Source: an uncultured Spirochaetaceae bacterium
Lineage (GTDB): Bacteria; Spirochaetota; Spirochaetia; SZUA-6; DRHE01
Length of the DNA: 64,000 nucleotides
Direction: 5' to 3'
NCBI GenBank assembly: GCA_964588355.1
Contig: CAZPPB010000002.1
Coordinates: 16,218 to 80,217, forward strand
The first letter of the stretch is position 1; every line of letters starts with the position of its first letter. Shown in pieces: positions 23,612 through 54,356 of this stretch. Position numbers and translations under genes: made by a program. Below the pieces are notes generated by a model. It was not told where the DNA came from. It was given only the letters and a program-made list of their open reading frames with translations, and did not search any database.

Positions 23612-23634
23612 GAAGGCGAAAGAGGAACAACGAT

Positions 23635-24590: not shown

Positions 24591-26285
24591 TCATACCATC
24601 TTGAACATCTGCGACATCCGCCGCCCCAGAATCCGGTTGGCCAGGAATATGGCTGAGAGCACCAGCACGATGAGGATCGTTCCCAGAGCGTAGGCGGGAC
24701 CGATAGTGGCGGAGAACAGATATTCCACGATGGCCACGGAGATCGTTTTCCAGCGGGCGGAGAAGAGGATCACCGTCGTTGAGAGCTCCCCCATCAGCGT
24801 GGCAAAGGATATCACGGCCCCCGCCAGGATGCCCGGTGCCATCAGGGGAAGGGTGATCTTCCTGAAGGTGGTCAACCAGGAAGCCCCGGTGATGGTGGAA
24901 GCCTCCTCTACGGCCACGTCGATCTGGGTCAACGAAGCGGTCGTGGATCTGAATATATAGGGCATGCGGCGGATGAAGAAGCCCACCACCATGATCATCC
25001 AGGTGCCGCTGAGGATGAGAAGACCCGAGGAGAAGCCGACCAGAATGGCCACCCCGACCACGATGCCGGGCAGGATGAAGGGCAGCATGACCGTCAGATC
25101 CAGGATCCAACGGGCCTTCAGATTTTTACGCACGTTGATATAGGAAAGCAGCGTACCGATCACCGAGGCGATCAGGGTAGCCGTAGTGGCCAGAAAAAGG
25201 CTGTTTCTAATGGGCGTCAGAGCGATCTCAAAGATCCTCCGGAAATTGTCGAACGAAAATTTGGTTGGATAGCGGGTGCCGGCCCAGCCCTCGGTGAAGG
25301 ATGTAAAAATCACAGTCAGGTGAGGGAGCAGGGAGAAGAAGATCACGCCGAAGCAGAATACGGTTCCCAGCCACTTCAAGAGCTTGCTCGAGGATACCCG
25401 CGCTGCCTGGGTCGTGCTGGTAATGGTGATGTAGGAGCGTTTGGCCGTCACATACTGGGAGAGGAGGATCGCGAAGGCCACCAGCACTACGTTGACCATG
25501 GCGATGGCCGCGGCGGCGTTGAGGTTGAAGAACCCGGTGACCTGAAAATGGATCAGGGTCGGCAGTACGTAGAAATTTCCTCCCAAAATCGCCGGGACAC
25601 CGAAATTACCCACCGAACGCATGAACACGATCAGAGCCCCGGCCACGATGGCAGGTATGACCAGAGGCAGGGTCACCGTGCGGATGACCCGCCAACGGGA
25701 GGCGCCCATGATTTCGGCGCTTTCCTCGATGTACGGATCCGCCGATATCAAGGCGCCGTAGGTAAGGAGGAAGATGAACGGATAGGTGCTCATGGTTATG
25801 GCGATGATGACCCCCGGTGCGCCGTAAATGTCCGGCAGGGTGAACCCGAAGGCCGCATCCAGAAAATAGTTGATCACTCCCTGCCGTCCGAACAGGAGGA
25901 TCCAGGAGTAGGCTCCTACAAACGGCGGAAGGATCAGAGGCAGGGTGCCGAGGGTGAGGAAGAAGGTTTTGAACGGGGTCTGGGTCTTGGCCACGAAGTA
26001 GGCCATGGGAATACCGATCAGACAGGAAAACAGAACGCAGACCAGACCGACCACCATGGTGTTCAAGAAAGCGCTTCTGTAGAGGGTGGATTTGGAGAAC
26101 TGAGCGAAGTTGGCCAGGGTCAGGTTGCGCAAGGTGGGGGCATCCCCCAGTTTGATGAAGCTGCTGAACACCACTTTGGAAAGCGGATAGACGATGAATA
26201 CGACCAGGATGATCAACGCCAGTCCTAAAACCAGGTAAGGGGTAAACTCAAAGGTCTTCAGCCGCCGGGTGATTTCTCGAGCCAT
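24591..26285 (-). CDS. ABC transporter permease, fused two-domain FbpB/AfuB type
   Basis: 564 aa, two repeated permease halves each with EAA-like loop (EESAEIMGASRWR.. and EEASTITGASWLTTFRKITLP). Confidence 0.85.
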   Translation of the reverse strand: MAREITRRLKTFEFTPYLVLGLALIILVVFIVYPLSKVVFSSFIKLGDAPTLRNLTLANFAQFSKSTLYRSAFLNTMVVGLVCVLFSCLIGIPMAYFVAKTQTPFKTFFLTLGTLPLILPPFVGAYSWILLFGRQGVINYFLDAAFGFTLPDIYGAPGVIIAITMSTYPFIFLLTYGALISADPYIEESAEIMGASRWRVIRTVTLPLVIPAIVAGALIVFMRSVGNFGVPAILGGNFYVLPTLIHFQVTGFFNLNAAAAIAMVNVVLVAFAILLSQYVTAKRSYITITSTTQAARVSSSKLLKWLGTVFCFGVIFFSLLPHLTVIFTSFTEGWAGTRYPTKFSFDNFRRIFEIALTPIRNSLFLATTATLIASVIGTLLSYINVRKNLKARWILDLTVMLPFILPGIVVGVAILVGFSSGLLILSGTWMIMVVGFFIRRMPYIFRSTTASLTQIDVAVEEASTITGASWLTTFRKITLPLMAPGILAGAVISFATLMGELSTTVILFSARWKTISVAIVEYLFSATIGPAYALGTILIVLVLSAIFLANRILGRRMSQMFKMV

Positions 26286-26293
26286 GGGACCTC

Positions 26294-27430
26294 CTAAGCC
26301 TTCTCCAGCTGTTGCCTCTGTTCCGTGGGAAACAGTTTGGCTTCCTGCCCGTGGACCAGGACGGCGACAGCATCGCCCACCCCCACACCATGGACACGGC
26401 GATCCTGATCGACCAGAATCTCCTGCGGATCGTGGTCCTGAAAGATCTCGATGTAATAGCGGACCACCGAGCCGAGGTAGAGGATGACCTTCACCTGACC
26501 TTTCAGGCTGTTCGGATGATTCGCAGCCGCGGAGACCTCCATCTGTTCGGGGCGGACGAAGAGGATCCCCTCCGTATCCTGGTAGCCGCGGACATTGTCC
26601 GAGCTGTTCGTTAGAGTGATCTGTTCGCCAGAACGGAACCGTAAGACCGGGTCTGCGTTGGCTTGGACTTCGCAGGTGAGGAAATTGGCTTGGCCGATGA
26701 AATCCGCCACCCGGATCGTGTTGGGATTTTCGTAGATTTCATCGGGAGTCCCGACCTGGCTGACCTTGCCGGCGTGCATCACGGCGATCCGGTCGGAGAT
26801 CGACAGGGCTTCCTCCTGATCGTGGGTCACATAGATCGTGGTCACTTTGGCCTGCTGTTGAATCCGCCGGATCTCTTCGCGCATGTAGACCCTCAGCTTG
26901 GCATCCAGATTGCTCAGGGGTTCATCCAGAAGCAGAAGCTGGGGATCGTAGACCAAAGCTCGAGCCAGGGCGATCCTCTGCTGCTGACCTCCGGACAACT
27001 CGCTGGGCTTACGCTTTTGAGTCGCCTCCAGTCCCACCAGTTGAATGATCCGGTTGACTTTCTGCTCAGTATCCTTTCGCGGCAGCTTGCGGATTCTCAG
27101 TCCGTAAGCCACGTTTTCGAAGATGGAAAGATGGGGGAACAGAGCGTAGCTCTGGAACACCATACCGATATTGCGCCGGAAAGGGGGGATCGAGGTGAAG
27201 TCCTGACCGAGGAAATCGATCCTCCCGCTGCTCGGTTTCTCGAAACCGGCAACACAGCGCAGCGTGGTGGTCTTCCCGCAGCCGCTGGGGCCGAGAAGAG
27301 TGAACAGTTCTCCTTCTCGAATATCCAGGGAAACGTCGTTCAAAGCCTGAACCTGCTCGTTTTTTCCGCCGAAGACCTTGCTGAGATTCCGGATAGACAA
27401 AGTGATCCGGCTGTTGTCCTGTTCCGTCAT
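26294..27430 (-). CDS. ABC transporter ATP-binding protein (FbpC/AfuC/PotA type)
   Basis: LLGPSGCGKTT, LSGGQQQRIALARAL, LLLDEPLSNLD; C-terminal TOBE-like domain. Confidence 0.9.
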   Translation of the reverse strand: MTEQDNSRITLSIRNLSKVFGGKNEQVQALNDVSLDIREGELFTLLGPSGCGKTTTLRCVAGFEKPSSGRIDFLGQDFTSIPPFRRNIGMVFQSYALFPHLSIFENVAYGLRIRKLPRKDTEQKVNRIIQLVGLEATQKRKPSELSGGQQQRIALARALVYDPQLLLLDEPLSNLDAKLRVYMREEIRRIQQQAKVTTIYVTHDQEEALSISDRIAVMHAGKVSQVGTPDEIYENPNTIRVADFIGQANFLTCEVQANADPVLRFRSGEQITLTNSSDNVRGYQDTEGILFVRPEQMEVSAAANHPNSLKGQVKVILYLGSVVRYYIEIFQDHDPQEILVDQDRRVHGVGVGDAVAVLVHGQEAKLFPTEQRQQLEKA

Positions 27431-27506
27431 TGGGGAAACCTCATTTGGTGATTAAAGAGTAAGCAGGCATGGACGGCTCGTCGAACCGTCCATGCCCGAG
27501 AGTACG

Positions 27507-28487
27507 TTAACGAGTGGCGAAGATCTCTCCAAACTTCTGCAGGTAATCGTTCCTGCTTGCCGAAGCCTTGTTGGCGTCGTACTCGAAGAATTTTATCTCC
27601 CCGGTCGGTTTGAGTCCCGGAGGCGGCGGCACATCGGGACGGGTCATCCTGCGAAAGTGGGGGGCTTGGCAGATAATGGTCATGGCTTCCTTGGTGGTCA
27701 GCCAGTCCATGAAGATCTTTGCATTATCCGGGTTCGGTCCTCCCTTGATGATCCCCGAGGCGTCGAAACGCAGACCCGTGCCTTCACTGGGATACACAGC
27801 TTCCACCGGATTGCCCTTGGCCTTCTCCGTGAACACGTTCCCCTCGCCGGTGATGCCGATGGCGAACTCACCCCGTCCTACAAACGTGTACACCAAAGAC
27901 GATTTCGGTACGAAGGTAGTTACCTGGCGGACGTCGTTGATATGGTCCCACCCGTACAGCCCGACCATCTGGAACAGTTGGGCGTAGGCCGAACCGGAAA
28001 GGGCCGGGTTGGCCATTACGACTTCCCCGCGATATTTGCTGTCTCCCAGGTCCTTCCAGCTCTTAGGAGCATCCCCGAGAGGAATCCTGTCGGTGTTGAT
28101 GATGAACGCCTGGATGTTGAAGCTGAAGCCGAAGTACTTGTTTCCCTTGGCATCTTTAACGTCGTTGGGGAAAGCGGATGCTTCCTTCACCCTGTAGGAG
28201 TCCAGAAGGTCGTAGACCACATCCATATTTTCCTTGGCCATGGCCATGATGATGTCCCCCTGGGGTCTTCTGGCCTCGGCCTGAACACGGGTGATGATCT
28301 CCCCTGAACCCAGCCGGATCTCCTCCACGTCGATGTTGCGGTACTTGGCCTTGAAGGCCCGCACCAAATCTTCTCCCATCTCCACGGATCCGGCATTGTA
28401 GATCACCAGCGTTCCGTCCGCTGAGACGAGCGCCGTGCCGAGCACGAGCATCAGGCCGATCACTACGGGAATGAGTCTTTTTTTCAT
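27507..28487 (-). CDS. ABC transporter periplasmic substrate-binding protein (FbpA/AfuA family)
   Basis: Signal peptide MKKRLIPVVIGLMLVLGTALVSA; cluster D (Fe3+/sugar-phosphate type) SBP layout. Confidence 0.8.
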   Translation of the reverse strand: MKKRLIPVVIGLMLVLGTALVSADGTLVIYNAGSVEMGEDLVRAFKAKYRNIDVEEIRLGSGEIITRVQAEARRPQGDIIMAMAKENMDVVYDLLDSYRVKEASAFPNDVKDAKGNKYFGFSFNIQAFIINTDRIPLGDAPKSWKDLGDSKYRGEVVMANPALSGSAYAQLFQMVGLYGWDHINDVRQVTTFVPKSSLVYTFVGRGEFAIGITGEGNVFTEKAKGNPVEAVYPSEGTGLRFDASGIIKGGPNPDNAKIFMDWLTTKEAMTIICQAPHFRRMTRPDVPPPPGLKPTGEIKFFEYDANKASASRNDYLQKFGEIFATR

Positions 28488-28522
28488 ACCTACCTCCTTG
28501 AGAAATATTGGTTACTTGCGAG

Positions 28523-28551
28523 ATTTTACATGATTCCTTACTGACGTGCAA
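28523..28551 (-). promoter_or_regulatory. candidate sigma-70 promoter for the ABC importer operon (TTGCAC-N17-TAAAAT on minus strand)
   Basis: Reverse complement reads TTGCACgtcagtaaggaatcatgTAAAAT about 30 nt upstream of the GGAGG RBS. Confidence 0.4.
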
Positions 28552-28602
28552 ATCAAAAATTGACCAAACTGAAAGTCTGCATTCACCCTATGCGCAGCCT
28601 GC

Positions 28603-29175
28603 CTATGCGCAGCCTGCAAGATCCCTGTTCAGTTGTTCCGCATCCGTAAACAACAGGGAGCGAATCCCCAGAGCGCCGGCTGCTTCAACGTTCTCTGGAA
28701 CGTCGTCTACGAAAACGGCTCGATCGGCCGAACAACCCTCGTGCTCCAAAATATAGGCGTAGAAGGCCGGGTCCGGTTTTGCCAACCCTATCAGATGCGA
28801 AGCATAGACCGCATCGAAGATACGGTAGTCACCCTTTCGCAGATGTATCTGGTAGTGGGGGCTGATCGTATTTGTTCCGGCCACGACCCGGGCGCCGTTT
28901 TTCAGCGTATCGATAAGCTCGATGACATCCGGATCCAGCTCGGGCTCGAAGAATCTGTTGAGCAAGTCTTCTTCTACGGTGAGCCCGCTTCTCCGGCAAA
29001 ATCTTCGGACGAACTCCTGTTCCGAAATCCTGCCGGTGGTCAGCTCTCCGAAATCATCCCGGGCGTATTCGATCATCTTCGCACCGTCGAACTCCAGATA
29101 CGCAGCTATATTCGGCACCGCGTTCGTATTTCGGCTTACGACCCCCCCCATATCGAAGATATATAGATCGACCAT
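28603..29175 (-). CDS. HAD-superfamily hydrolase (subfamily IA-like phosphatase)
   Basis: Motif I IFDMGGV, later VVAGTN, K..KPDP, FVDDV. Confidence 0.7.
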   Translation of the reverse strand: MVDLYIFDMGGVVSRNTNAVPNIAAYLEFDGAKMIEYARDDFGELTTGRISEQEFVRRFCRRSGLTVEEDLLNRFFEPELDPDVIELIDTLKNGARVVAGTNTISPHYQIHLRKGDYRIFDAVYASHLIGLAKPDPAFYAYILEHEGCSADRAVFVDDVPENVEAAGALGIRSLLFTDAEQLNRDLAGCA

Positions 29176-29192
29176 CCACTCTCCATGACTGC

Positions 29193-30068
29193 TCAGTCGA
29201 GCTCTCTCATTCTCTCAAGCACCTCGTCGATCGTTCCGTCGAACGGCCCCGGTTTCTCCATCTTGAGGCTGGTCAGGGCGGCGGCGTACCGCAGAGATTC
29301 CTCGGGCCCGTGGTTCATCCGCCGGGTCATATAGGCGGCAAAGCAGGTATCCCCCCGTCCTGTCCGGCCCGACAGGTTCGAGGGATTGAACGGTGCCGTG
29401 AACAACTTCTTGCCGTCGTACAGCAGCACCTCACTCGAATGGGTGATCAGAACCTCCGATGCTCCCCAGCCGTGGAGCATTCGGGCTGCTTCCCGTCTGT
29501 CCTCGGTTCCGGTAATGACCCTCGATTCGAGGGAGTCGGCCTTCAAATAGTGGATGTGGGGAAGATACTCCTGTTTCTCCGGCCAATCGTGCCAGGAGAA
29601 GTTGCCCTCCCGGCTGCTGCGGAGCATGCACTGCAGGTCCAGCCCCACCCGGGCCTTCCGGGCGAGCGGTTCGATCATCTCCGGGGGTATGTCTCCGTAA
29701 AACAGGCCGGCGAGATTGAAAATCTCCGTCTGTACGTCGGGGATCTCCTCGAACCGAAAGGGCTCGGCCTGTGAGAGAAGCCGCACCTTGCGCCGGTCCG
29801 CATCCTCGGTCTCGAAGATGTTTTTTATGGAGGTGGTATGGATGCTCGGCAGTGCGATCACCTCTATGCCCTGTTCGGTCAGCCCGTACAGAAGCCCGAA
29901 GTCTTTCCGGGCCAGCTTCGTCAGGACCAGGATCCTGGCGCCGGAACGTTGCGCGGCGAAAGAAGAAAAATAGGCTGCGCCGCCGATGAACCGGGAGACC
30001 TCACCCCTTTCGCTCAGCACATCATTGGTAACGTGGCCGATCGTGACGATGTCATACCCCTTGCGCAT
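29193..30068 (-). CDS. PfkB-family carbohydrate kinase
   Basis: Ribokinase-like fold; C-terminal GRGDTCFAAY (anion hole/GG-DTxGAGD-type motif); ATG at 30068 overlaps the PMM stop (TAATG). Confidence 0.8.
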   Translation of the reverse strand: MRKGYDIVTIGHVTNDVLSERGEVSRFIGGAAYFSSFAAQRSGARILVLTKLARKDFGLLYGLTEQGIEVIALPSIHTTSIKNIFETEDADRRKVRLLSQAEPFRFEEIPDVQTEIFNLAGLFYGDIPPEMIEPLARKARVGLDLQCMLRSSREGNFSWHDWPEKQEYLPHIHYLKADSLESRVITGTEDRREAARMLHGWGASEVLITHSSEVLLYDGKKLFTAPFNPSNLSGRTGRGDTCFAAYMTRRMNHGPEESLRYAAALTSLKMEKPGPFDGTIDEVLERMRELD

Positions 30069-31306: not shown

Positions 31307-31314
31307 GGTCTAGG

Positions 31315-32085
31315 CTACGGTCCCGTGCTTGCTCTCGGAGATGAGATCAACGCTGACTCGAGCAGGCTGGGCAGTTCTGCAATCGAGTTCAGCACCGCAT
31401 CGGGCTTGGGAAACTCAGGATCGGGGGTCTCCTTGAAATCATGGCGAATCTGCAGAGCCAGGGCGAAGCCGGCCCGTTTCGCCCCCAGGATATCCCGGGA
31501 GATACGATCCCCTATGTGAACGCATGCGCTTGGGGAGGCGTTCAACAGTCCCGCGGCGTGCTGGAAGATAGCCGGGTCGGGCTTGCGGCGCCCGTATTCG
31601 CTGGACAGTACGACAGGGTCGAAGTAATGCCTGATCCCGTAGCGGTTCAGATCGTCGGGGACCTGACCGCGGGATTGGATATTGCTGATGATTCCCAGCT
31701 TCAAACCCATCCGCGTGAGGGTCTCCAGCACCTTAGGAATCTCGGGACGCATGCGGCGCTGGTAGTACCGTGTATCCACAGTGTATGTAAGATCTTCCGC
31801 TACCCCGTCCAGCTGACCGGGAGCTAAAGGGTAGGTTTTCAATATAAACTCCCGCCAAACTTTCTCGGGTGGAAGCTCAACCAAAGAAACCTCCCGCCAC
31901 CGGCGGTAGGCCTTCAACCCTTGGTTGATCCGGTCGTACAGCTCCTCATCGCAGCCGTGAACGTCCACACCGGCTCGGGACAGCAGCAGACGGATCTCTT
32001 CGGTGGCCTTTATCCCGGCTCTGCGCTCATAGGTGTGCGTATCTATGGTACCGCCCATGTCGAAAAAGACAGCTTTCAGATTCAT
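31315..32085 (-). CDS. HAD-superfamily hydrolase
   Basis: Motif I VFFDMGGT (start MNLKAVFFDMGG at 32085), later ISNI, RRKPDP, GDRISRD. Confidence 0.7.
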   Translation of the reverse strand: MNLKAVFFDMGGTIDTHTYERRAGIKATEEIRLLLSRAGVDVHGCDEELYDRINQGLKAYRRWREVSLVELPPEKVWREFILKTYPLAPGQLDGVAEDLTYTVDTRYYQRRMRPEIPKVLETLTRMGLKLGIISNIQSRGQVPDDLNRYGIRHYFDPVVLSSEYGRRKPDPAIFQHAAGLLNASPSACVHIGDRISRDILGAKRAGFALALQIRHDFKETPDPEFPKPDAVLNSIAELPSLLESALISSPRASTGP

Positions 32086-32234
32086 GTCATCATACCGGAG
32101 AGTGGATTTCCTTCCATAAAATAGACTGTGAGTGAACGAATTGTACCGTTGAACTGGATTGTCCGCGTCCAAAAATATCAGGTTTGTCTGCGAGTGTAAA
32201 TAAAAATTTTCAATGAATTTGTGATGCGCAAATT

Positions 32235-33018
32235 TTATTTCTGCACCCGCCGGCGAGCAGTTGTTTCCGGTTTCGCTGTATTCACCCTGTTGCTTTTTTT
32301 GTTCACCCTGGCCAGGTCAGATACCTCTTCGTGGTAGTAGGTAGTTCTGATATCATTGAGCTCGCGCAGGGCTTCCATAGCCTTCTCCCCCAATTTTTCG
32401 GCCACCCGGATGATGAGGGCATTTGTAACCGCCATGGGAACGAGGGAGTGGAGAGAAACACACCGAAGGGCCCCCGCTTGGCGTACAGAACAAGGTGAGC
32501 ATTGCGGACCATGGGGGGCACACGGGTATCGGTTATCAGCAGATTGGGAATTTGCCTTCTGTGTACGAAATCGAGGAGGCTTATTATATCGGGGGTAGGT
32601 TTGTAGAATGCATACACGACGAGGAAATCTTTAGGGGTCAGCAGAATGAGCTTCTCGAAGATATTGTTATCGGTATCCGGGATGAGAACGGTTTTTTTTC
32701 GGAAGCTGTTCAACCGAAAGCACAGGTAGGTGGCCAGGGATTCGTTGGAGCCGCTGCCGAACATGTAGATCGTATCGGCACGGCACAGGTAGCGGACAGC
32801 AGAGTTGAAGTTATTTTTATCAATAGAAGAGACTGATTCGCTCAAGTACTCGATACCGCCGCTTCGCTGGTGTCCAGGACGGAAGCCAATTCCGAGATCG
32901 AATAGAATATGACCTCCTGCACATTGGTTGAGATATAGTCGGCTATCTTCCTCTGCTTCTTGGGCAATCGGTCGTAGGCTTCGTGTATCTGCGAAAACAA
33001 ATCCTTTTCCCCCGACAT
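32235..33018 (-). pseudogene. MurR/RpiR-family transcriptional regulator (HTH_6 + SIS), frameshifted
   Basis: Canonical N-terminus MSGEKDLFSQIHEAYDRLPKKQRKIADYISTNVQEVIFYSISELASVLDTSEAAV from ATG 33018 (GGAGAA RBS) runs into a stop near 32845; the SIS domain (TIYMFGSGSNESLATYLCFRL..) continues in another frame, and the C-terminal helix appears in a third frame (32235-32435). Confidence 0.55.
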
Positions 33019-33132
33019 GATCGGTTCTCCCGCTCGAAAATATTTTTACTTTATTCTTGAGCATATTTTCATTTTTTTGCAGCCTTTACGGGAAGCCGGC
33101 CGGCAGCTTAAGTTGACACGGCAGGAGGGATC

Positions 33133-34320
33133 TCACATACCGGTGGTGGAACCGACCAGCCAGCGAAGCAAAACCCAGGCTGCGGCAATAAGCAGCCAGG
33201 CGAGCATCGCCACCCAGAAGAATCCGAAGCCGGAGTAAAGGGCGAAGCCGACGATCGGGCCCGCGGCGGTTCCCAAGTCGAGGAAGGTGGAGAAGCGACT
33301 CAGGTGAAGCGCCCCGTCTCGATGGGGAGCAAGGTCTCCCGCCAGGGTGTACAGCAGGAGGCGGACCCCTATACTGGCGGCGAACTGAAGCAGCAGGCAG
33401 GTAACCATCAGGGGCCAGGCAGGACAGAAGGCGATACCCCCTATGCAGCCTGCCTGCAGGGCGATCAGGACCATCAGCAGTCGCTTTCTCCCGAAGCGAT
33501 CACCGATCATTCCTGCGAGGGGGCCCAGAATCAAAGTTCCAAACGAGCGAAAGCCGAGCAGCAGCCCAGTCAGGCTGGTTACTCCGAGAGACAGTGGCAG
33601 GATGGGCCCGATTCGGTCGGCCACCAGGCGTCCGGTGAGATTTGCGATCATCTCCTCGGTCATTGTCAGAGCCAGGGCGCATCCCCAGAGGCCGAGAAGC
33701 GATTTTCCCTGCTCTGAGGCGAACACGGAGTTCGGAGTGATCGGATTGCGCTGCGGAGCTTTCCACAGCAGGAGCAGACCAGACAGTGTAGCGCAGCCGA
33801 AGATGAAGAATGTCGAGGGGATCCCAATCGTATCTACCAGCAGGCCGCCGATGAGAACGCCGCCTCCCTGCCCGATCCTGGTGATCGCCTGATAGACTGC
33901 GAAGATGCGTCCCCGGGTTTGGCGGGAGGAAATCGCCAGGGCGGCCAGATATCCTTCGACCCGAAACAGAGACCAGCAGGCTCCCCAGGCTAGGCGGGCG
34001 GCCAGGAGACCCCAGAAACCGATCGGCAGGGCGTAGCTGGCCGTAATCAGGCTGCCGGCGATGACAGCCGCGTACAGAGGCCGGTTGCTGCGGCTGCGCC
34101 GGACCAGGCGTCCGGCCAATTCGTTTGTTCCGAGACGGACCAGGCGGTTTGCCCCGAGCAGGATGCCGACCTGCCAGACCTGCAGGCTGAAGGCCTCCGG
34201 GCGGGAGGGAAGCACTGCATACAGCAGGGCATCACCAAGCAGGGAAAGTGCCACGATCATCGAAGTCAACAGAAACCGCCTTCGATTTTCGGTTGCCTCT
34301 GTGGTTTCGATTCTCCGCAT
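33133..34320 (-). CDS. MFS transporter
   Basis: 395 aa, ~12 TM helices, MFS-like loop motifs. Confidence 0.75.
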   Translation of the reverse strand: MRRIETTEATENRRRFLLTSMIVALSLLGDALLYAVLPSRPEAFSLQVWQVGILLGANRLVRLGTNELAGRLVRRSRSNRPLYAAVIAGSLITASYALPIGFWGLLAARLAWGACWSLFRVEGYLAALAISSRQTRGRIFAVYQAITRIGQGGGVLIGGLLVDTIGIPSTFFIFGCATLSGLLLLWKAPQRNPITPNSVFASEQGKSLLGLWGCALALTMTEEMIANLTGRLVADRIGPILPLSLGVTSLTGLLLGFRSFGTLILGPLAGMIGDRFGRKRLLMVLIALQAGCIGGIAFCPAWPLMVTCLLLQFAASIGVRLLLYTLAGDLAPHRDGALHLSRFSTFLDLGTAAGPIVGFALYSGFGFFWVAMLAWLLIAAAWVLLRWLVGSTTGM

Positions 34321-34445
34321 TGATTAGCTCCCGCAAGGCATCGGCAGTACCCGGTGTCGTCGTGGGCTCATCGTGGTTCAGATTCGATGCATCGTCAAGC
34401 ATTGATGAAAATGAAGTTGCATACTCGAAGCCAAACGAACGTCAC

Positions 34446-34473
34446 TTGACAGACCGGCCAGGACTTGTAGTAT
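34446..34473 (+). promoter_or_regulatory. candidate sigma-70 promoter (TTGACA-N16-TAGTAT) for the second ABC importer operon
   Basis: Consensus -35 at 34446-34451 and near-consensus -10 at 34468-34473, 14 nt before ATG 34487 (short leader). Confidence 0.45.
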
Positions 34474-34486
34474 TAGACCAAACGAA

Positions 34487-36316
34487 ATGGCAGTTAACAC
34501 ACCTGCGGATCTCGTGGGCGGTCGGAAATTTCAGTTTGCCGCCGCTAAGCTCCGCAATCGTCCTGACATCCTGCTGGCTCTTTTATTCCTGGTCGTGCTG
34601 TCGTTTCTGGTCATCGCACCTCTGGTTCAGATCATCTACACGTCTGTGATCTATCAGAGCAACGATCTGCGGGTCGTTCGGGACGCGCGAGCCGGTCAGT
34701 TCACCCTGTACCATTATGCCAGGATTTTCAGCGGGCGCCTGGCCCGCTCGATCTTCTATAAGCCGTTTGTAAACAGCCTGATCGTCGGATTCGGGGTTAC
34801 TCTGTTCGCCATGACTATCGGGGCGCTGCTGGCCTGGGTCCTGGTACGCACCGACATCCACCTCAAGGGTTTTTTCAACTCCGTGATCGTCATCCCCTAC
34901 ATGATGCCATCCTGGGTTATCGCCCTTGCCTGGCTGATCTTCTTCAAAAACGATCGCATAGCGGGCCAGCAGGGAATGCTACAACAGCTGCTGGGGGTGG
35001 GACCTCCGGATTGGTTTTCTTACGGGCTGCTGCCGATCATCATCTGTCTCGGCCTGCACTACTATTCATACTCGTTCCTGCTGGTTTCCGGGGCTCTCAG
35101 AACCGTAGACTCAGAGCTGGAGGAGGCGGGAGCGATCGCCGGACTTTCCAGATCCGCCATACTGCGAAAGATCACGCTTCCGATCGTACTGCCGGCACTC
35201 AGCTCCTCCTTCATTCTCACCTTCACCCGTAGCATGGGAACCTTCGGCACTCCTGCTCTGTTGGGGTTGCCGGTGCGCTTCTTCACTATTCCCACCCGGA
35301 TCTATGCATCGATCAACTCTCGAAACATGGGCGATGCATTTGTGCTGGCGTTGGTGCTGGTGCTGCTGGCTTCTGTGGCCATTTACATCAACAGTCGCAT
35401 CATCGGTATCCGCCGGAGCTTCGTAACGATGCGGGGTAAAGGATTCCGCAGCCATCCGACCAGGCTTGGTGCTCTGCGTGTTCCGCTGACGATCATCGTG
35501 CTCGTATTCCTGCTGGTGGCGGTGTTTCTGCCGGTGGTGATCCTGGGCTACAGCACCTTCATGCTTCTCCCCGGAGACTACTCGTTCTCCAATCTCACCC
35601 TCCATTTCTGGGTTGGGGAAAGCGATTTCAGGATAGCCAGCGGTCAGGAGGGTATCCTGCGCAACGACGGGATCGGCAGGGGCGTATGGAACAGCGTCCG
35701 CCTGGGCGTGCTGGCAGCAGCAATCAACGGGGTCATCGGTCTTCTCATCGGATATTCGGTGGTGCGCAGCCGGGGCCGTCCCCTGTCCAAACTGCTGGAG
35801 GCCGTGTCTTTTGCCCCCTATGTGTTTCCTAGCATTGCTATGGGAGCGATCTACCTGGGTATGTTCGCCCGTCCCCTCGGGCCGATCCCCGCTCTATACG
35901 GAACCTTCGTGCTCCTGGTGCTTATTGTGGTGGTCAAGAATCTGCCCTTCTCTTCACGGTCGGGGATCAGCGCCATGCTGCAGATCGACAAGTCCCTGGA
36001 GGAGAGCGCCCGTATCCATGGGCTCCCCTGGTTCAAGCGTTTTCGAAAAATCATCTTTCCTCTGGCTAGAAGCGGGTTCGTTTCGGGAATGATCCTGACT
36101 TTCATCACCGCCATGAGAGAGCTTTCCCTTTTGATCCTCCTGGTCACACCCGCCACCCGGGTACTCACCTCGGTGATTTTCGAGTACGAGAGCCAGGATC
36201 AGACCCAGCACGCCAATGGGGTCACCCTGATCCTGCTCGCCATTATCGTAGTCGCGAGTCTAGTGGTTCGGCGTTTTTTCGGTCAACGAAGCCTGTCAGG
36301 CTTGAGAGATTCCTGA
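34487..36316 (+). CDS. ABC transporter permease, fused two-domain FbpB/AfuB type
   Basis: 609 aa with two permease repeats (EEAGAIAGLSRSAILRKITLP.. and EESARIHGLPWFKRFRKIIFP). Confidence 0.85.
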   Translation: MAVNTPADLVGGRKFQFAAAKLRNRPDILLALLFLVVLSFLVIAPLVQIIYTSVIYQSNDLRVVRDARAGQFTLYHYARIFSGRLARSIFYKPFVNSLIVGFGVTLFAMTIGALLAWVLVRTDIHLKGFFNSVIVIPYMMPSWVIALAWLIFFKNDRIAGQQGMLQQLLGVGPPDWFSYGLLPIIICLGLHYYSYSFLLVSGALRTVDSELEEAGAIAGLSRSAILRKITLPIVLPALSSSFILTFTRSMGTFGTPALLGLPVRFFTIPTRIYASINSRNMGDAFVLALVLVLLASVAIYINSRIIGIRRSFVTMRGKGFRSHPTRLGALRVPLTIIVLVFLLVAVFLPVVILGYSTFMLLPGDYSFSNLTLHFWVGESDFRIASGQEGILRNDGIGRGVWNSVRLGVLAAAINGVIGLLIGYSVVRSRGRPLSKLLEAVSFAPYVFPSIAMGAIYLGMFARPLGPIPALYGTFVLLVLIVVVKNLPFSSRSGISAMLQIDKSLEESARIHGLPWFKRFRKIIFPLARSGFVSGMILTFITAMRELSLLILLVTPATRVLTSVIFEYESQDQTQHANGVTLILLAIIVVASLVVRRFFGQRSLSGLRDS

Positions 36317-36355
36317 TGCGTCGCATCGGAAAAAAACTTTACTAAGGAGTTCGAT

Positions 36356-37618
36356 ATGAAAACGAAGTATTTGACTCTATCCATTTTGTTCCTTTTCATC
36401 CTTTTGGCCGTCCTTGGCTGCGGCGAAGGCCGTAAGGAGGCGGTTCCGAATGTGTATTCGCCGGAAACGGTGCAGTGGCTCCGGTCGGCGAAGCTGGATG
36501 CCTTTGAGGACAGTCCCCAGGATTGGGCGGAAATCGAGCGTTTGGCCAAGGAGGAGGGACGTGTGGTAGTCTACTCCTCCTCATCCCGGATCGCCAATGT
36601 GGCCGAAGCTTTCGAGGCCACCTATCCGGAAATTACACTCGAGGGCTACGACCTGGGATCGGTGCAGACCCTGGAAAAAACGATCCGGGAGCAGGAAGCC
36701 GGTGTTTACAACGCCGACATCATCACAACCGGTGGATCCGGGCAGGTTATCTACGAGCTGCTGGCCAATCACCGGATCGTGAATTTCGTTCCCGACACGG
36801 TGGGTGATCAGATTTCCGAAGAGATGAAGGATCCTCTTCTGGTCCGCATCAACGAGGCGATCGTCTTCTTCTACAACAGGGAGGCCTATCCCGACGCCCC
36901 GCCGATCGAAAATATCTGGGCGCTCACAACCGAAGAATGGCGAGGGAAAGTTGTGCTTAAAAATCCCCTGGAATCGGAATCCGTGTTCATGGGGGTCTGC
37001 ACCCTGGTCGAACATGCAGATGAGATGGAAGCGGCATACGAGCGCTTCGCCGGCAAGAAGCTCGAGCTCAGTCCCGATGTTCCCGACGCCGGTTATGAGT
37101 TTCTTTACCGCCTGTTGAAAAATGACTTGATCCTTCTCTCCTCAGGCAGCAAGTCCGCCGAAGCTTCCGGCCAGACGGGCCAGCCGGATCCCCCGATCAG
37201 CATCGGGTCCTTCACCTATATCCGCTACAATGACACGAAGGGATTTGCCAATGAGGTATTTCGGGATCTGGACCCTGTTTCCGGCGTGATCTATCCCACC
37301 TACACGGGAATCGCTGCGTATGCGCCCCATCCGAACGCGGCAAAGCTGCTCACAGCCTTCCTGCTTGGATCTCCGGAGATCAATCCGAATTCGGTGATCG
37401 AGGAACCCTACACGGAGGGCGAGAGTGTAGAGCTGCTTCAGGGTTTGGCTCCCTACTACGAGATGGGTTCCCAGAGCCCGAGGAAGGACGTGCCTCCGCC
37501 GGCGGGTGGAGAGATCTGGGACGAGGTAGCTTCCAATTGCTGGACCGTCAGTCCGGAGTTCATGTGGTATGAGGCTCCGAATGTGCAGGATTTCTGGGTC
37601 CAGGAGTCGGCCCAATAG
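36356..37618 (+). CDS. ABC transporter substrate-binding lipoprotein (FbpA/AfuA family)
   Basis: Lipoprotein signal LAVLGCGEG, AAGGAG RBS; SBP fold. Confidence 0.8.
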   Translation: MKTKYLTLSILFLFILLAVLGCGEGRKEAVPNVYSPETVQWLRSAKLDAFEDSPQDWAEIERLAKEEGRVVVYSSSSRIANVAEAFEATYPEITLEGYDLGSVQTLEKTIREQEAGVYNADIITTGGSGQVIYELLANHRIVNFVPDTVGDQISEEMKDPLLVRINEAIVFFYNREAYPDAPPIENIWALTTEEWRGKVVLKNPLESESVFMGVCTLVEHADEMEAAYERFAGKKLELSPDVPDAGYEFLYRLLKNDLILLSSGSKSAEASGQTGQPDPPISIGSFTYIRYNDTKGFANEVFRDLDPVSGVIYPTYTGIAAYAPHPNAAKLLTAFLLGSPEINPNSVIEEPYTEGESVELLQGLAPYYEMGSQSPRKDVPPPAGGEIWDEVASNCWTVSPEFMWYEAPNVQDFWVQESAQ

Positions 37619-37629
37619 GTGAGGGGCGT

Positions 37630-38721
37630 TTGAGCAGCATCGTTCTACAAGACATCAGTAAATCGTACGGCGGGGTAACCGCCGTACGAAATCTTTCTCT
37701 TCATATCGCCGAAGGCCAGTTCGTGACCCTTCTGGGTCCTTCCGGATGCGGCAAGACTACCACTCTGCGAGTCATCGCCGGTCTGGAGGAACCCGACACA
37801 GGGGAGGTGCTAATAGGTGAACGGCTGCTGTTTTCCCGCTCCAGGGGGGTGTTCATCCCCCCTGAAAAGAGGGGACTGGGGCTGATCTTCCAGAGCTATG
37901 CCCTCTGGCCGCACATGACGGTCCGACGCAACATCGCCTTAGGGCTGGAGCAGCAGCGCCTCGCCAAGGATGTCGTACAAAAGAGGGTACAATCGGCACT
38001 GGAAAAGGTTCATCTGACCGGCTACGAAGAGCGGTACCCGTCGGAACTATCCGGCGGTCAGCAGCAGAGGGTGGCGGTAGCCCGGATGGTGGCCGCTGAA
38101 CCGGAGATCTTTCTAATGGACGAACCCCTTTCCAACCTCGACGCCATGCTGCGCATCGACATGCGGGCGGAGCTCAAGCGCTTGCATCACGAGCTGGAAG
38201 CGACCACTGTCTACGTTACCCATGACCAGGTGGAAGCCCTGACCTTGTCGGACCTGATCGCGGTCATGGACTCCGGGGTTGTCCGGCAGATCGGCACGCC
38301 CGAGGATATCTACAAGCGGCCTGAGGACCTGTTCGTAGCCCGCTTCGTGGGCAGTCCCCGGATCAACACGGTAACGGGGCGTATCGTGAGTGAAGACGGT
38401 CGAAGCCAATTTACCGCCGGGCAGCTGTCGATCCCCGTTCAGCCCGATCGATCATTCCCGGGGGAACAGATAGTTGCGGCAGTGCGCCCCGAAGACATCG
38501 AGGTTTCCGGAAAACCGGTGGAGGGGTGGTTGGAATGCAGGGCTTACTCGATCCTTCCGGTGGGCTCGGAAACGATCATCAACGTGCAGTCCTCCGACTT
38601 TTCCCTGTCTGTAAAAGTGAATGGTTTCTCCGATATACAGATGGATGACCCGGTCTGGGTGCAGCTGAATGAATCTGCTGTGAATTTTTACGACAGCCGA
38701 GACGAGCAGCGCATCCCCTGA
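37630..38721 (+). CDS. ABC transporter ATP-binding protein (FbpC/AfuC/PotA type)
   Basis: LLGPSGCGKTT, LSGGQQQRVAVARM, FLMDEPLSNLD; TTG start. Confidence 0.9.
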   Translation: MSSIVLQDISKSYGGVTAVRNLSLHIAEGQFVTLLGPSGCGKTTTLRVIAGLEEPDTGEVLIGERLLFSRSRGVFIPPEKRGLGLIFQSYALWPHMTVRRNIALGLEQQRLAKDVVQKRVQSALEKVHLTGYEERYPSELSGGQQQRVAVARMVAAEPEIFLMDEPLSNLDAMLRIDMRAELKRLHHELEATTVYVTHDQVEALTLSDLIAVMDSGVVRQIGTPEDIYKRPEDLFVARFVGSPRINTVTGRIVSEDGRSQFTAGQLSIPVQPDRSFPGEQIVAAVRPEDIEVSGKPVEGWLECRAYSILPVGSETIINVQSSDFSLSVKVNGFSDIQMDDPVWVQLNESAVNFYDSRDEQRIP

Positions 38722-52440: not shown

Positions 52441-52457
52441 TGCCGGGGTCTCCAATT

Positions 52458-54346: not shown

Positions 54347-54356
54347 ACGCCACTCC

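What the first reader, a model, noticed from the sequence alone, without database searches (positions are those of the whole stretch)
24591..38721. FbpABC/AfuABC-type importers embedded in sugar-kinase/phosphatase/isomerase genes: likely sugar-phosphate uptake, not iron (clusters A and B)
Three paralogous ABC systems occur in this window (24591-28487 minus; 34487-38721 plus; 53258-57165 minus). Each has a fused ~560-610-aa two-domain permease, a PotA/FbpC-like ATPase and an FbpA-like binding protein. Automated pipelines would call all three iron(III) transporters. In this span, cluster A is neighboured by two HAD phosphatases, a PfkB kinase, a PMM/PGM remnant and a SIS-domain RpiR regulator. 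Cluster B sits next to the MFS transporter. Established work on Actinobacillus/E. coli AfuABC showed that this FbpA-like family can transport hexose and heptose phosphates. The gene context here fits a sugar-phosphate (or phosphorylated polyol) salvage role much better than iron. No iron-regulatory signals are obvious.
Basis: partly seen in the sequence, partly recalled or inferred. Interest (0 to 1): 0.6.

Follow-up and report, generated by a model that had tools for sequence, protein, structure and literature searches.

The report
Non-iron importers tied to pyrophosphate kinases
Two transporters that databases label as iron importers lack every iron-binding residue and sit in a conserved gene set of phosphatases, phosphate transporters and pyrophosphate-using kinases, so they most likely take up phosphorylated sugars or sugar-like compounds, though not the ones already known for this family.

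Summary
There are three ABC importers at the stated coordinates, each with a fused permease, a PotA-like ATPase and an FbpA-fold binding protein.

"Not iron" is supported. None of the three binding proteins keeps the His/Glu/Tyr-Tyr ligands, and no Fur-like box rises above chance.

"Sugar-phosphate" is only partly supported.
- **Cluster C** (outside the span) carries the complete AfuA motif.
- **Cluster A** keeps the phosphate cradle. It replaces the sugar-recognition residues with an invariant S/G/G/N/R/R signature, in 116 homologues and in relatives at 38-45% identity. It therefore binds a different phospho-ligand. Neighbouring genes point to hexose-1-phosphate or cyclitol-phosphate.
- **Cluster B** is a separate clade. 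Its nearest fold is the Mg-citrate binder MctA. Its predicted pocket is rich in Ser and Arg, and its ligand is unknown.

New findings:
- The "PfkB kinase" carries all determinants of the pyrophosphate-dependent TM0415 family.
- A second such kinase ends the cluster C operon.
- Related transporters elsewhere lie in a conserved operon: RpiR, ABC importer, HAD fusions, PhoU_div-PiT and a PPi-kinase.
- RpiR and PGM/PMM are pseudogenes in this window.

Verdict: a new variant of a known kind, with moderate-to-good interest.

The parts
24591..26285 (-). Cluster A fused two-domain ABC permease (564 aa)
   Evidence: Two BPD_transp_1 stretches. The best NCBIfam hit is PhnU2 at 207 bits, against a cutoff of 593. 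It is 68-92% identical in A-type loci.
26294..27430 (-). Cluster A ATPase (378 aa)
   Evidence: ABC_tran + TOBE_2. PhnT2/PotA-like, below the cutoffs.
27464..27498 (-). 16-bp G+C-rich hairpin just after the SBP-A stop codon, inside the operon
   Evidence: Terminator-like scan. A role as attenuator or mRNA stabiliser is an inference only.
27507..28487 (-). SBP-A. It belongs to the AfuA clade, keeps the phosphate cradle and has a new pocket signature (S103/G203/G205/N206/R229/R269 in AfuA numbering).
   Evidence: PDB hits: 8x1a (G6P binder VcA0625) 1.6e-33, AfuA 4r72 7.8e-32, P5PA 6e-27. Residue mapping in 116 homologues and in relatives at 38-45% identity.
28603..29175 (-). HAD-IA phosphatase (190 aa), YihX/glucose-1-phosphatase-like
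   Evidence: Pfam Hydrolase/HAD_2. NCBIfam glucose-1-phosphatase at 74.7 bits, below the cutoff. It lies directly upstream of SBP-A in 8 loci. It matches the C-terminal half of the HAD-HAD fusion of the conserved operon.
29193..30068 (-). Predicted pyrophosphate-dependent ribokinase-family kinase, TM0415 type (PPiK1)
   Evidence: PDB TM0415 9e-49. RTGRGD motif. K171, F221, R229, R232 and M266 are all kept. Acceptor residues D11, I76, N78, L116, Q141 and R145 are kept, with S89V. Determinants are taken from PMC5931981.
30059..31234 (-). PGM/PMM (alpha-D-phosphohexomutase) pseudogene
   Evidence: Domain fragments lie in separate ORFs. tblastn matches fall in frames -1/-2/-1. The same fragmentation is seen in JGI contig L001, which is 100% identical over the shared genes.
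31315..32172 (-). HAD-IA phosphatase (CTE7/NANP-like)
   Evidence: Pfam and NCBIfam. PDB N-acylneuraminate-9-phosphatase about 1e-16. 54% identical to the N-terminal half of the HAD-HAD fusion of the conserved operon.
32303..33064 (-). RpiR-family regulator remnant (SIS domain ORF; the HTH part is out of frame at about 32854-33018)
   Evidence: Pfam finds SIS only. tblastn of intact RpiR homologues hits three frames with about 55 aa missing.
33133..34320 (-). MFS transporter (MFS_1/MFS_3, efflux-like)
   Evidence: Pfam. NCBIfam gives only weak efflux-type hits. It is conserved next to PPiK1 in L004, L012, L016, L021 and L027.
34446..34473 (+). Sigma-70-like promoter match (TTGACA-16-TAGTAT) in the divergent intergenic region upstream of the cluster B permease
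   Evidence: Consensus scan, 10 of 12. This is a pattern match only.
34487..36316 (+). Cluster B fused two-domain ABC permease (609 aa)
   Evidence: Two BPD_transp_1 stretches. 65-91% identical in B-proper loci.
36356..37618 (+). SBP-B. A lipoprotein (LGC lipobox) with an FbpA/AfuA/MctA fold, belonging to a separate clade.
   Evidence: No Pfam or NCBIfam hit. AF2 model pLDDT 91.6. Foldseek top hit is MctA 7f6e at 3e-16. hhalign to the AfuA group gives 99.4%. Subclade analysis.
37630..38721 (+). Cluster B ATPase (363 aa)
   Evidence: ABC_tran + OB_MalK/TOBE_2. UgpC-like at 361 bits, below the cutoff.
38880..39500 (-). PhoU_div (DUF47) partner of PiT
   Evidence: Pfam. It is conserved next to the module in L016 and L027 (89-90% identity) and inside the conserved operon in 12 metagenome loci.
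39513..40526 (-). PiT (PHO4) inorganic phosphate transporter
   Evidence: Pfam PHO4 6.7e-76. Same conservation as PhoU_div.
51562..52479 (-). Second predicted PPi-dependent kinase (PPiK2, 'homolog No. 49' type). It is the last gene of the cluster C operon. The start is probably Met14, about position 52440.
   Evidence: tblastn 49% identity, 3e-88, to operon kinases. RSGRGD motif, K171, F221, M266, and acceptor residues L/I/S at positions 78/89/116.
52458..53252 (-). Xylose-isomerase-like TIM barrel (hydroxypyruvate-isomerase-like) in the cluster C operon
   Evidence: Pfam AP_endonuc_2. NCBIfam 162 bits, below the cutoff.
53258..57165 (-). Cluster C: ATPase, fused permease and an AfuA-type SBP with the full sugar-phosphate motif

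Best explanation
The span holds two ATP-driven importers of the FbpA/AfuA/PhnS/MctA binding-protein family. Neither is a ferric-iron transporter.

**Cluster A.** The SBP belongs to the AfuA/VcA0625/P5PA clade and keeps the Gly-Ser-Gly / Ser-Gly-Ser / Ser phosphate cradle. Every ring-contacting residue is exchanged for an invariant set: Tyr103 to Ser, Phe203 to Gly, His205 to Gly, Asp206 to Asn, Glu229 to Arg and Gln269 to Arg. By inference this gives a roomier, more positively charged pocket. That pocket would bind a phosphomonoester other than G6P, F6P, S7P or PLP. The gene neighbours make a hexose-1-phosphate or a cyclitol (inositol) phosphate the best guess.

**Cluster B.** The SBP is a lipoprotein of a separate deep clade. 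Its predicted pocket positions are rich in Ser and Arg, so it likely binds another oxyanionic organic ligand.

**Shared context.** Both importers are embedded in a set of genes that recurs with this transporter family. The set comprises a pyrophosphate-dependent ribokinase-family kinase, two HAD phosphatases (the split halves of a fusion found elsewhere), an efflux-type MFS, an RpiR regulator (decayed here) and a PhoU_div-PiT phosphate transporter.

**Proposed flow.** The steps after uptake are inferred, not shown.
1. The periplasmic SBP captures the phospho-compound.
2. The fused permease and ATPase import it.
3. Inside the cell, the HAD phosphatases and the PPi-dependent kinase reshuffle its phosphate. 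They either remove it or add a second one using PPi.
4. PiT and PhoU_div balance the released phosphate.
5. The carbon skeleton enters sugar or cyclitol metabolism, or leaves through the MFS.
For: **Family placement and pocket residues.**
- Sequence placement of SBP-A and SBP-C next to solved sugar-phosphate and PLP binders.
- Residue mapping shows the phosphate cradle kept and the iron ligands absent in A, C and B.
- The A signature is near-invariant in 116 homologues at 66-91% identity. It is also present at 38-45% identity in Sphaerochaetaceae and Treponemataceae.

**Genes near A-type operons (phospho-sugar themed).**
- A YihX-like HAD lies directly upstream in 8 loci.
- PGM/PMM is present in the window, and also in L032 and L033 together with a DeoR regulator.
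- Two sugar-1-P nucleotidylyltransferase-like genes flank the operon in 5 Desulfobacterota loci.
- Cof-type HAD and PHP phosphatases occur in L004.
- TIM-barrel genes occur in L005, L011 and L025.

**Kinases.**
- All five PPi-donor determinants and the RXGRGD motif are present in both window kinases.
- The same kinase type lies next to C-type transporters in L117 and L119.

**Conserved operon.** The order RpiR, ABC, HAD-HAD, HAD-TIM, PhoU_div, PiT, PPi-kinase recurs in at least 12 metagenome loci. Spirochaetaceae relatives repeat the window's layout (L016, L027, L004, L021).

**B-proper loci elsewhere.** They are flanked by phosphatase-like genes or PGM/PMM, though the E-values are weak.

**Iron regulation.** No Fur-like box exceeds the shuffled expectation.
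Against: - No ligand was measured, and no usable 3D model of SBP-A was obtained (pLDDT 39). Pocket statements therefore rest on alignment to AfuA.
- The cradle residues also bind carboxylates in MctA. 'Phosphate' is therefore likely but not proven, especially for B.
- SBP-B belongs to a different subclade from the SBPs of the large conserved operon. Its link to the module rests on adjacency in Spirochaetaceae only (window, L027, L012). B-proper operons elsewhere mostly stand alone.
- A kinase beside an importer is classically read as 'import the unphosphorylated compound, then phosphorylate it'.
- The only acceptor shown for this kinase family is myo-inositol, with a poor Km (PMC5931981).
- The regulator and the mutase are pseudogenes here, so the locus may be partly decaying.
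- The Fur consensus used is the E. coli consensus and may not apply to spirochaetes.
Confidence: 0.6

Rival explanations
1. These are ferric-iron (FbpABC-type) importers, as automated annotation says.
For: JGI names homologues of all three SBPs 'iron(III) transport system substrate-binding protein'. The fold is shared with FbpA, HitA and FutA.
Against: None of the His/Glu/Tyr-Tyr ligand positions is kept in A, B or C. FbpA-type structures score far worse than the sugar-phosphate binders (1e-5 to 1e-11 against 1e-32 to 1e-49). No Fur-like site exceeds chance. The neighbours are phosphatases, kinases and phosphate transporters, not iron genes.
Confidence: 0.03
2. Cluster A is a true AfuABC orthologue that imports glucose-6-P, fructose-6-P or sedoheptulose-7-P.
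For: The best PDB relatives are VcA0625 (a G6P binder) and AfuA. The phosphate residues are kept.
Against: H205, D206 and E229 are each essential for G6P binding (PMC4546632). In A and in essentially all 116 homologues they are G, N and R. Y103, F203 and Q269 are also replaced. The window already has a full-motif AfuA-type system, cluster C.
Confidence: 0.08
3. Cluster A and/or C are 2-aminoethylphosphonate (PhnS2T2U2-type) importers.
For: The best NCBIfam models for all A and C subunits are PhnS2, PhnT2 and PhnU2.
Against: All scores are far below the curated cutoffs. For example, SBP-A scores 136.7 against 392.75. SBP-C, which has the complete AfuA sugar-phosphate motif, scores higher on PhnS2 than A does, so the hit does not discriminate. 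No phnW, phnX or phnA lies nearby. The only class-V aminotransferase neighbour is a NifS.
Confidence: 0.06
4. The importers take up non-phosphorylated polyols, cyclitols or sugar acids (for example myo-inositol). The PPi-dependent kinase phosphorylates them after uptake. The Ser/Gly cradle binds a carboxylate or hydroxyls rather than phosphate.
For: A transporter plus a kinase is the usual catabolic logic. TM0415-type enzymes phosphorylate myo-inositol (PMC5931981). The same cradle binds carboxylates in MctA. The SBPs of the large conserved operon have Asp/Gly-rich rather than Arg-rich pocket positions.
Against: SBP-C keeps every AfuA phosphate and sugar contact yet also carries a PPi-kinase, so a kinase does not argue against a phospho-ligand. 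A-type operons are surrounded by phosphatases, a phosphomutase and sugar-1-P nucleotidylyltransferases. Two invariant arginines were added to the A pocket.
Confidence: 0.2
5. Cluster B imports a metal-chelate such as Mg- or Fe-citrate, like its closest structural relative MctA.
For: MctA is the top Foldseek match (E 3e-16, 20% identity) and the only PDB sequence hit.
Against: MctA residues S26, D28 and S79 align to S75, S77 and G126, so the acidic D28 is lost. TM-scores are only about 0.56-0.6 and identity is 20%. Where neighbours exist, they are phosphatase-like or phosphomutase genes.
Confidence: 0.1

Closest known systems
AfuABC of Actinobacillus pleuropneumoniae / EHEC (hexose- and heptose-phosphate importer; PDB 4R72-4R75) and VcA0625 of Vibrio cholerae (G6P binder; 8X1A)
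   Same: The architecture is the same: SBP, fused permease and ATPase. SBP-A and SBP-C are clear homologues (E 1e-32 and 1e-49). The phosphate cradle is kept. Both were mis-annotated as iron transporters. Cluster C also shares the gene order and the H205/D206/E229 motif.
   Different: SBP-A replaces all ring-binding residues (S/G/G/N/R/R) and so cannot recognise G6P in the AfuA manner. The gene order in A is SBP-ATPase-permease. Both A and C are operonic with PPi-dependent kinases. To my knowledge (not checked in the papers read) this has not been reported for AfuABC.
P5PA of Actinobacillus (pyridoxal-5'-phosphate binding protein; 6WCE)
   Same: It is in the same clade (E 6e-27 to SBP-A). It shows that the cradle is retained while the ring pocket changes to give a new phospho-ligand specificity.
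   Different: The P5PA ring contacts Y103 and H203 are S and G in SBP-A. P5PA is restricted to Pasteurellaceae (PMC8427247).
MctA of Thermus thermophilus (Mg2+-citrate binding protein; 7F6E)
   Same: It is the closest solved fold to SBP-B. The N-terminal 'YSS...' strand-loop is shared.
   Different: Identity is only about 20%. SBP-B is about 80 residues longer. The MctA ligand residues are not conserved, and the genomic context differs.
TM0415 of Thermotoga maritima and 'homolog No. 49' of Levilinea saccharolytica (pyrophosphate-dependent ribokinase-family kinases)
   Same: Both window kinases keep K171, F221, R229, R232, M266 and the RXGRGD motif. PPiK1 has the TM0415 acceptor pocket except for S89V. 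PPiK2 has an acceptor pattern close to that of No. 49 (L/I/S at positions 78/89/116, against L/L/S).
   Different: TM0415 sits in an inositol catabolic cluster with a CUT2-type sugar ABC system (from memory, not checked here). Here the kinases are operonic with AfuA-family importers, HAD phosphatases and PiT. Their true acceptors are unknown.
FbpABC / HitABC / FutA ferric-ion importers
   Same: The overall fold and the transporter architecture are shared.
   Different: None of the metal ligands is present, and sequence similarity is only distant.

Membership tests
FbpA-type ferric-binding proteins | Metal ligands: His (about position 9), Glu (about 57) and a Tyr-Tyr pair (about 195/196), or Tyr-rich variants | tested here: not met
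   The YfuA and FutA1 ligands align to AfuA positions 11, 59 and 205/206. SBP-A has S, M, G, N. SBP-C has D, G, H, D. SBP-B has S77, G126, T287, Y288.
FbpA-type ferric-binding proteins | Iron-responsive regulation (a Fur box in the promoter) | tested here: not met
   The best match in the promoters is 10-11 of 19. The window-wide maximum is 13, and shuffled maxima are 13-15. Caveat: the E. coli consensus was used.
AfuA hexose/heptose-phosphate binding proteins | Significant full-length homology to AfuA | tested here: met
   SBP-A 7.8e-32 and SBP-C 1.4e-49 to 4r72. SBP-B is related only by profile (99.4% hhalign).
AfuA hexose/heptose-phosphate binding proteins | Sugar-coordinating motif H205, D206, E229 (used by Sit et al. 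2015 to define the family) | tested here: not met
   SBP-A has G216, N217, R240. The 116 homologues have G (112) or A (4), then N, then R. The motif is met by SBP-C (H, D, E). SBP-B has T287, Y288, P314.
AfuA hexose/heptose-phosphate binding proteins | Phosphate cradle S37/G38, S148-G149-T150, S184/G185 | tested here: met
   SBP-A has G-S-G, S-G-S and S185. SBP-C has S-S-G, S-G-T and S-G. SBP-B has G101-S102, S207/S209 and S263-G264.
AfuA hexose/heptose-phosphate binding proteins | Measured nanomolar binding of G6P, F6P or S7P | not testable with these tools
   This requires ITC or DSF on purified protein.
P5PA pyridoxal-phosphate binding proteins | At least 65% identity to P5PA, with ring contacts Y103 and H203 | tested here: not met
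   The relationship is distant (E 6e-27). The two positions are S and G in SBP-A.
PhnS2T2U2 2-aminoethylphosphonate transporter | Score above the NCBIfam equivalog cutoffs, and phnW/phnX/phnA in the neighbourhood | tested here: not met
   SBP-A scores 136.7 against 392.75. The permease scores 207 against 593. The ATPase scores 392 against 458. No phosphonate catabolic genes are nearby, and the L028 aminotransferase is NifS.
MctA metal-citrate binding proteins | Conservation of the ligand residues S26, D28, S79 (S164, T199 and Y221 were not mapped reliably) | tested here: inconclusive
   These align to S75, S77 and G126, so D28 and S79 are lost. Y288 may correspond to Y221. Only fold-level similarity is established.
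Pyrophosphate-dependent ribokinase-family kinases (TM0415 group) | K171, F221, R229, R232, M266 and the RXGRGD motif | tested here: met
   PPiK1 (29193-30068) and PPiK2 (51562-52479) keep all of them.
Pyrophosphate-dependent ribokinase-family kinases (TM0415 group) | PPi- but not ATP-dependent phosphorylation in vitro | not testable with these tools
   An enzyme assay is needed.
RpiR/MurR regulators | HTH_6 and SIS domains in one reading frame | tested here: not met
   The HTH lies in frame -3 and the SIS in frame -2, about 55 residues are missing, and there is a C-terminal frameshift.
Type I ABC importers with fused permease (FbpB/AfuB/ThiP type) | Two BPD_transp_1 domains in one polypeptide, plus an ATPase with a TOBE/OB tail, plus an SBP | tested here: met

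The most novel reading that the evidence does not exclude
AfuA-superfamily ABC importers and the orphan pyrophosphate-dependent ribokinase-family kinases form one functional unit in anaerobic sediment bacteria. On this reading, the kinases' true substrates are the phosphorylated sugars or cyclitols (for example inositol phosphates or hexose-1-phosphates) delivered by these importers. Together with multi-domain HAD phosphatases and PhoU_div-PiT, they would make up a previously undescribed pathway. It would couple organophosphate uptake to the cell's PPi/Pi economy. The kinase might even run in reverse, conserving phosphoester energy as PPi for PPi-dependent glycolysis. SBP-A and SBP-B would then be the first binding proteins for these ligand classes.
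Probability: 0.2. Interest if true: 0.8.

Novelty: new variant of a known kind. Interest (0 to 1): 0.6.

Why it matters
**Annotation.** Hundreds of environmental proteins labelled 'iron(III) transport system substrate-binding protein' belong to at least two specificity classes that lack iron ligands. These are the A-type, with its invariant S/G/G/N/R/R pocket, and the roughly 415-aa B-type lipoproteins. Iron budgets inferred from metagenomes would be inflated, and organophosphate uptake would be underestimated.

**Biochemistry.** Nagata et al. (2018) left the physiological acceptors of the PPi-dependent ribokinase-family kinases open. These kinases repeatedly share operons with AfuA-family importers, HAD phosphatases and PiT. 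That gives a concrete, testable list of candidate substrates.

**Ecology.** Dedicated import of phosphorylated sugars or cyclitols by salt-marsh and sediment Spirochaetota, Desulfobacterota, Chloroflexota and Atribacterota bears on how organic phosphorus is recycled in anoxic sediments.

Tried and rejected
- **AF2 model of SBP-A.** The 16-sequence alignment gave pLDDT 39, which is unusable, so no fold search or pocket geometry was possible. Both prediction jobs were then spent.
- **Literature look-ups by PDB code or gene name.** Searches for 6LKG, 7LI0, 8X1A, 6FJL, 4R6Y, VCA0625, 7EZN and 5M43 returned mostly noise.
- **Search for a known bacterial inositol-phosphate ABC importer.** Nothing relevant was found.
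- **Fur-box and E. coli Pho-box scans.** No site exceeded the shuffled expectation.
- **Phosphonate hypothesis.** Rejected. The NCBIfam scores are sub-threshold, the PhnS2 hit does not discriminate, no phn genes are present, and the L028 Aminotran_5 is NifS.
- **PLP or thiamine salvage idea (PfkB as PdxK/ThiD).** Dropped once the kinase proved to be TM0415-type.
- **Assumption that SBP-B is orthologous to the SBPs of the large conserved operon.** Rejected by the subclade analysis.
- **The 403-aa plus-strand ORF 51499-52710.** It has no Pfam hit and overlaps the minus-strand kinase PPiK2, so it is judged spurious.

Full report
**1. What is there**

ORF listing and Pfam/NCBIfam scans confirm three ABC importers at the stated coordinates.
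- Cluster A (minus strand): SBP 27507-28487, ATPase 26294-27430, fused permease 24591-26285.
- Cluster B (plus strand): fused permease 34487-36316, 420-aa lipoprotein 36356-37618, ATPase 37630-38721.
- Cluster C (minus strand): SBP 56164-57165, permease 54357-56069, ATPase 53258-54346.

Upstream of cluster A on the minus strand (listed 3' to 5', up to the cluster B boundary) lie HAD (190 aa), PfkB kinase, PGM/PMM fragments, HAD (285 aa), a SIS-domain ORF and an MFS transporter. Downstream of B lie PhoU_div and PiT.

The source organism is a Spirochaetaceae bacterium known from JGI metagenomes. Close relatives include the MAG CP070696.1. Homologues of all three SBPs are labelled 'iron(III) transport system substrate-binding protein' in public data.

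**2. Iron is not the ligand**

I aligned the SBPs with the solved proteins AfuA (4R72), VcA0625 (8X1A, a G6P binder), P5PA (6WCE), YfuA (1XVX) and FutA1 (2PT1).
- The iron ligands of YfuA and FutA1 fall at AfuA positions 11 (His), 59 (Glu) and 205/206 (Tyr-Tyr).
- SBP-A has S, M, G, N at these positions. SBP-C has D, G, H, D.
- A profile-profile alignment places SBP-B residues S77, G126 and T287-Y288 there.
- Ferric-binding structures score 1e-5 to 1e-11. Sugar-phosphate binders score 1e-32 to 1e-49.
- A Fur-consensus scan finds at best 10-11 of 19 matches in the promoter regions. Shuffled sequence reaches 13-15. The consensus is from E. coli, so this test is weak for a spirochaete.

**3. Cluster C is a textbook AfuA system; cluster A is not**

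Sit et al. (PMC4546632) showed the following for AfuA:
- S37 and T150 bind the phosphate.
- H205A, D206A and E229A each abolish G6P binding.
- The authors used those three residues to define the family.

SBP-C keeps all five residues.

SBP-A keeps the cradle. It has G36-S37-G38, S148-G149 with T150 changed to S, and S at position 185, matching the phosphate-binding S183 of P5PA. It differs at the ring contacts: Y103 to S, F203 to G, H205 to G, D206 to N, E229 to R, Q269 to R and T60 to A.

In 116 homologues of 66-91% identity these substitutions are invariant, except for four Ala at position 205. The same signature is present at 38-45% identity in Sphaerochaetaceae and Treponemataceae.

SBP-A is therefore a distinct, conserved specificity class within the AfuA/P5PA clade. 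P5PA shows that this clade changes ligand by changing the ring pocket while keeping the cradle (PMC8427247).

It is inference that the smaller side chains and two added arginines give a larger and more positive pocket. My structure prediction for SBP-A failed (pLDDT 39).

**4. Cluster B**

The 420-aa protein has a lipobox (LGC) and no Pfam or NCBIfam hit.
- An AlphaFold model built on 28 homologues is confident (pLDDT 91.6).
- Foldseek places it in the FbpA/AfuA/PhnS/MotA fold group. The Mg-citrate binder MctA is the best match (E 3e-16, 20% identity).
- hhalign against the AfuA group gives 99.4% probability.
- That alignment matches G101-S102, S207/S209 and S263-G264 to the AfuA cradle.
- The MctA residues S26, D28 and S79 align to S75, S77 and G126.

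The predicted pocket positions are rich in Ser and Arg in this subclade: S75, S77, R78, S102, R164, S207, S209, S263, K266, Y288 and R376. That suggests an oxyanionic ligand, but I cannot name it.

**5. The kinase is a pyrophosphate-dependent enzyme, and there are two**

The 'PfkB' gene matches T. maritima TM0415 at 9e-49. Nagata et al. (PMC5931981) defined five donor determinants (K171, F221, R229, R232, M266) and the motif RXGRGD.
- The window enzyme keeps all of them (RTGRGD).
- It also keeps the myo-inositol contacts D11, N78, Q141 and R145, plus I76 and L116. Only S89 differs (V).
- A Spirochaetes homologue with that same pattern is in their candidate list.

A second kinase lies at 51562-52479 on the minus strand.
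- It was hidden under a spurious plus-strand ORF.
- It is 49% identical to operon kinases elsewhere.
- It carries RSGRGD, K171, F221 and M266.
- Its acceptor residues at 78/89/116 are L/I/S, close to 'homolog No. 49'.
- It is the last gene of the cluster C operon, after a xylose-isomerase-like TIM barrel.

The same kinase type flanks C-type transporters in two other loci (L117, L119). In the Atribacteria locus L119 it sits beside an ATP-type PfkB and a fusion of NTP_transferase with CDP-alcohol phosphatidyltransferase. From my own knowledge, that fusion has the architecture of the inositol-1-phosphate cytidylyltransferase / DIP-phosphate synthase.

**6. A conserved gene set**

Close Spirochaetaceae relatives repeat the core MFS, PPiK1, HAD190, SBP-A, ATPase, permease.
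- B-type or B-like transporters and PhoU_div-PiT often lie alongside (L004/L026, L012, L016, L021, L027).
- L027 has the window's order but lacks the RpiR, HAD285 and PGM segment.
- L016 has PiT, PhoU_div, MFS, PPiK1, HAD190 and cluster A, with no B.

A metagenome scan with the B-family alignment, followed by local clustering, found at least 12 loci with a co-directional operon. Their SBPs are 28-35% identical to SBP-B. The gene order is:
1. PRK-like kinase, ApgM or iPGM, and an MFS_3 transporter (variable);
2. RpiR;
3. permease, ATPase, SBP;
4. a HAD-HAD fusion;
5. one or two HAD-AP_endonuc_2 fusions;
6. PhoU_div and PiT;
7. a PPi-kinase;
8. an MBL-fold protein.

Annotations come, and kinase signatures. 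The window's two HAD genes correspond to the two halves of that HAD-HAD fusion.

One caution applies. SBP-B falls in a different subclade ('B-proper') from the SBPs of this operon, and the predicted pocket residues differ between subclades. Its tie to the module is therefore positional and limited to Spirochaetaceae.

B-proper operons elsewhere mostly stand alone. Some are flanked by a PTP/DUSP-like protein (1.5e-5), a histidine-phosphatase-like protein (3.5e-4) or PGM/PMM. These are weak but consistent hints of a phosphoester substrate.

**7. What A may carry**

Several independent neighbour types point to anomeric or ring phosphates.
- The HAD immediately upstream is most like glucose-1-phosphatase YihX, though below the cutoff.
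- A phosphohexomutase accompanies A-type operons in the window (now a pseudogene). It also does so in Sphaerochaetaceae, together with a DeoR regulator.
- In five Desulfobacterota loci the operon is flanked by two genes resembling sugar-1-phosphate nucleotidylyltransferases.
- The Sulfurimonas locus L024 adds an IolG-like dehydrogenase, a DegT aminotransferase and an amidohydrolase. The last two also lie next to the A permease in the window.
- TM0415 makes inositol-1-phosphate (PMC5931981).

I therefore favour a hexose-1-phosphate or cyclitol phosphate. This is an inference from context only.

**8. Decay in this strain**

The RpiR gene is broken. Its HTH part is in another frame, about 55 residues are missing, and there is a C-terminal frameshift. 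PGM/PMM is split over three frames, and the same breakage occurs in contig L001. L001 is 100% identical across the shared genes, so it likely represents the same population. That makes an assembly artefact less likely but does not amount to independent confirmation. The transporters, kinases and HADs are full length compared with their homologues.

**9. Verdict**

'AfuA-like sugar-phosphate uptake' holds for C. For A it needs to be changed to 'a new phospho-ligand class'. For B it remains open.

What adds interest is the repeated coupling of this transporter family to pyrophosphate-dependent kinases, HAD phosphatases and PhoU_div-PiT. As far as I could find, this has not been described. I rate the finding as a new variant of a known kind, with interest 0.6.

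Noticed in passing
window 41321-47680: A sigma-54 response regulator (41321-42706) and a dCache_3/HAMP histidine kinase (42736-44565) are followed by a Zn-dependent alcohol dehydrogenase (44792-46096). A second PhoU_div-PiT pair follows at 46112-47680. Two PiT modules therefore bracket this two-component system.
   Followed up: no
window 58242-59642: An IS91-family transposase (Y2_Tnp + Zn_Tnp_IS91) lies directly beside cluster C and its divergent TIM-barrel gene. SBP-C homologues are 75-96% identical across Spirochaetes, Desulfobacterales, Thermodesulfobacteriota and Atribacteria. This suggests horizontal spread of cluster C.
   Followed up: partly
window 22280-24573; L014; L024: A DegT/DnrJ/EryC1 aminotransferase and an Amidohydro_2 protein sit next to the A-type permease in the window. 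The amidohydrolase recurs in L014. Both recur in the Sulfurimonas locus L024, where an IolG-like GFO_IDH_MocA dehydrogenase precedes them. This may be a cyclitol or amino-sugar modification step.
   Followed up: partly
L119 6872-10804 (Atribacteria contig Ga0136246_10000076): Next to a C-type AfuA-like transporter lie a PPiK2-type kinase, a MerR regulator, an ATP-type PfkB (TGAGD) and a 440-aa NTP_transferase + CDP-OH_P_transf fusion. That fusion has the architecture of inositol-1-phosphate cytidylyltransferase / di-myo-inositol-phosphate-phosphate synthase.
   Followed up: partly
L058, L065-L068, L071, L074-L078, L101: A conserved operon of about 12 genes links a PRK-like P-loop kinase, ApgM/iPGM-type phosphoglycerate mutase, MFS_3, RpiR, an ABC importer, HAD-HAD and HAD-AP_endonuc_2 fusions, PhoU_div, PiT, a PPi-dependent kinase and an MBL-fold protein. 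I found no description of its function.
   Followed up: partly
window 27464-27498 (minus strand): A 16-bp G+C-rich hairpin lies immediately after the SBP-A stop codon and before the ATPase gene. Whether it acts as an attenuator or mRNA stabiliser was not tested.
   Followed up: no
window 51499-52710 (+) versus 51562-52479 (-): The longest ORF here is a 403-aa plus-strand frame with no Pfam hit. It masks the real minus-strand PPi-kinase gene, so a length-based gene call would miss the kinase.
   Followed up: yes
window 48612-51185: An 857-aa protein combines a trypsin-like peptidase domain, a PPC domain and C-terminal TPR repeats, just downstream of the cluster C operon.
   Followed up: no
L038 237-839, L040; L042 5913-6632, L043: B-proper transporter operons in other lineages are flanked by one of two small proteins. 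One is a 200-aa PTP/dual-specificity-phosphatase-like protein (PDB 7ezn 1.5e-5). The other is a 239-aa histidine-phosphatase/PGAM-like protein (3eoz 3.5e-4). The hits are weak.
   Followed up: partly
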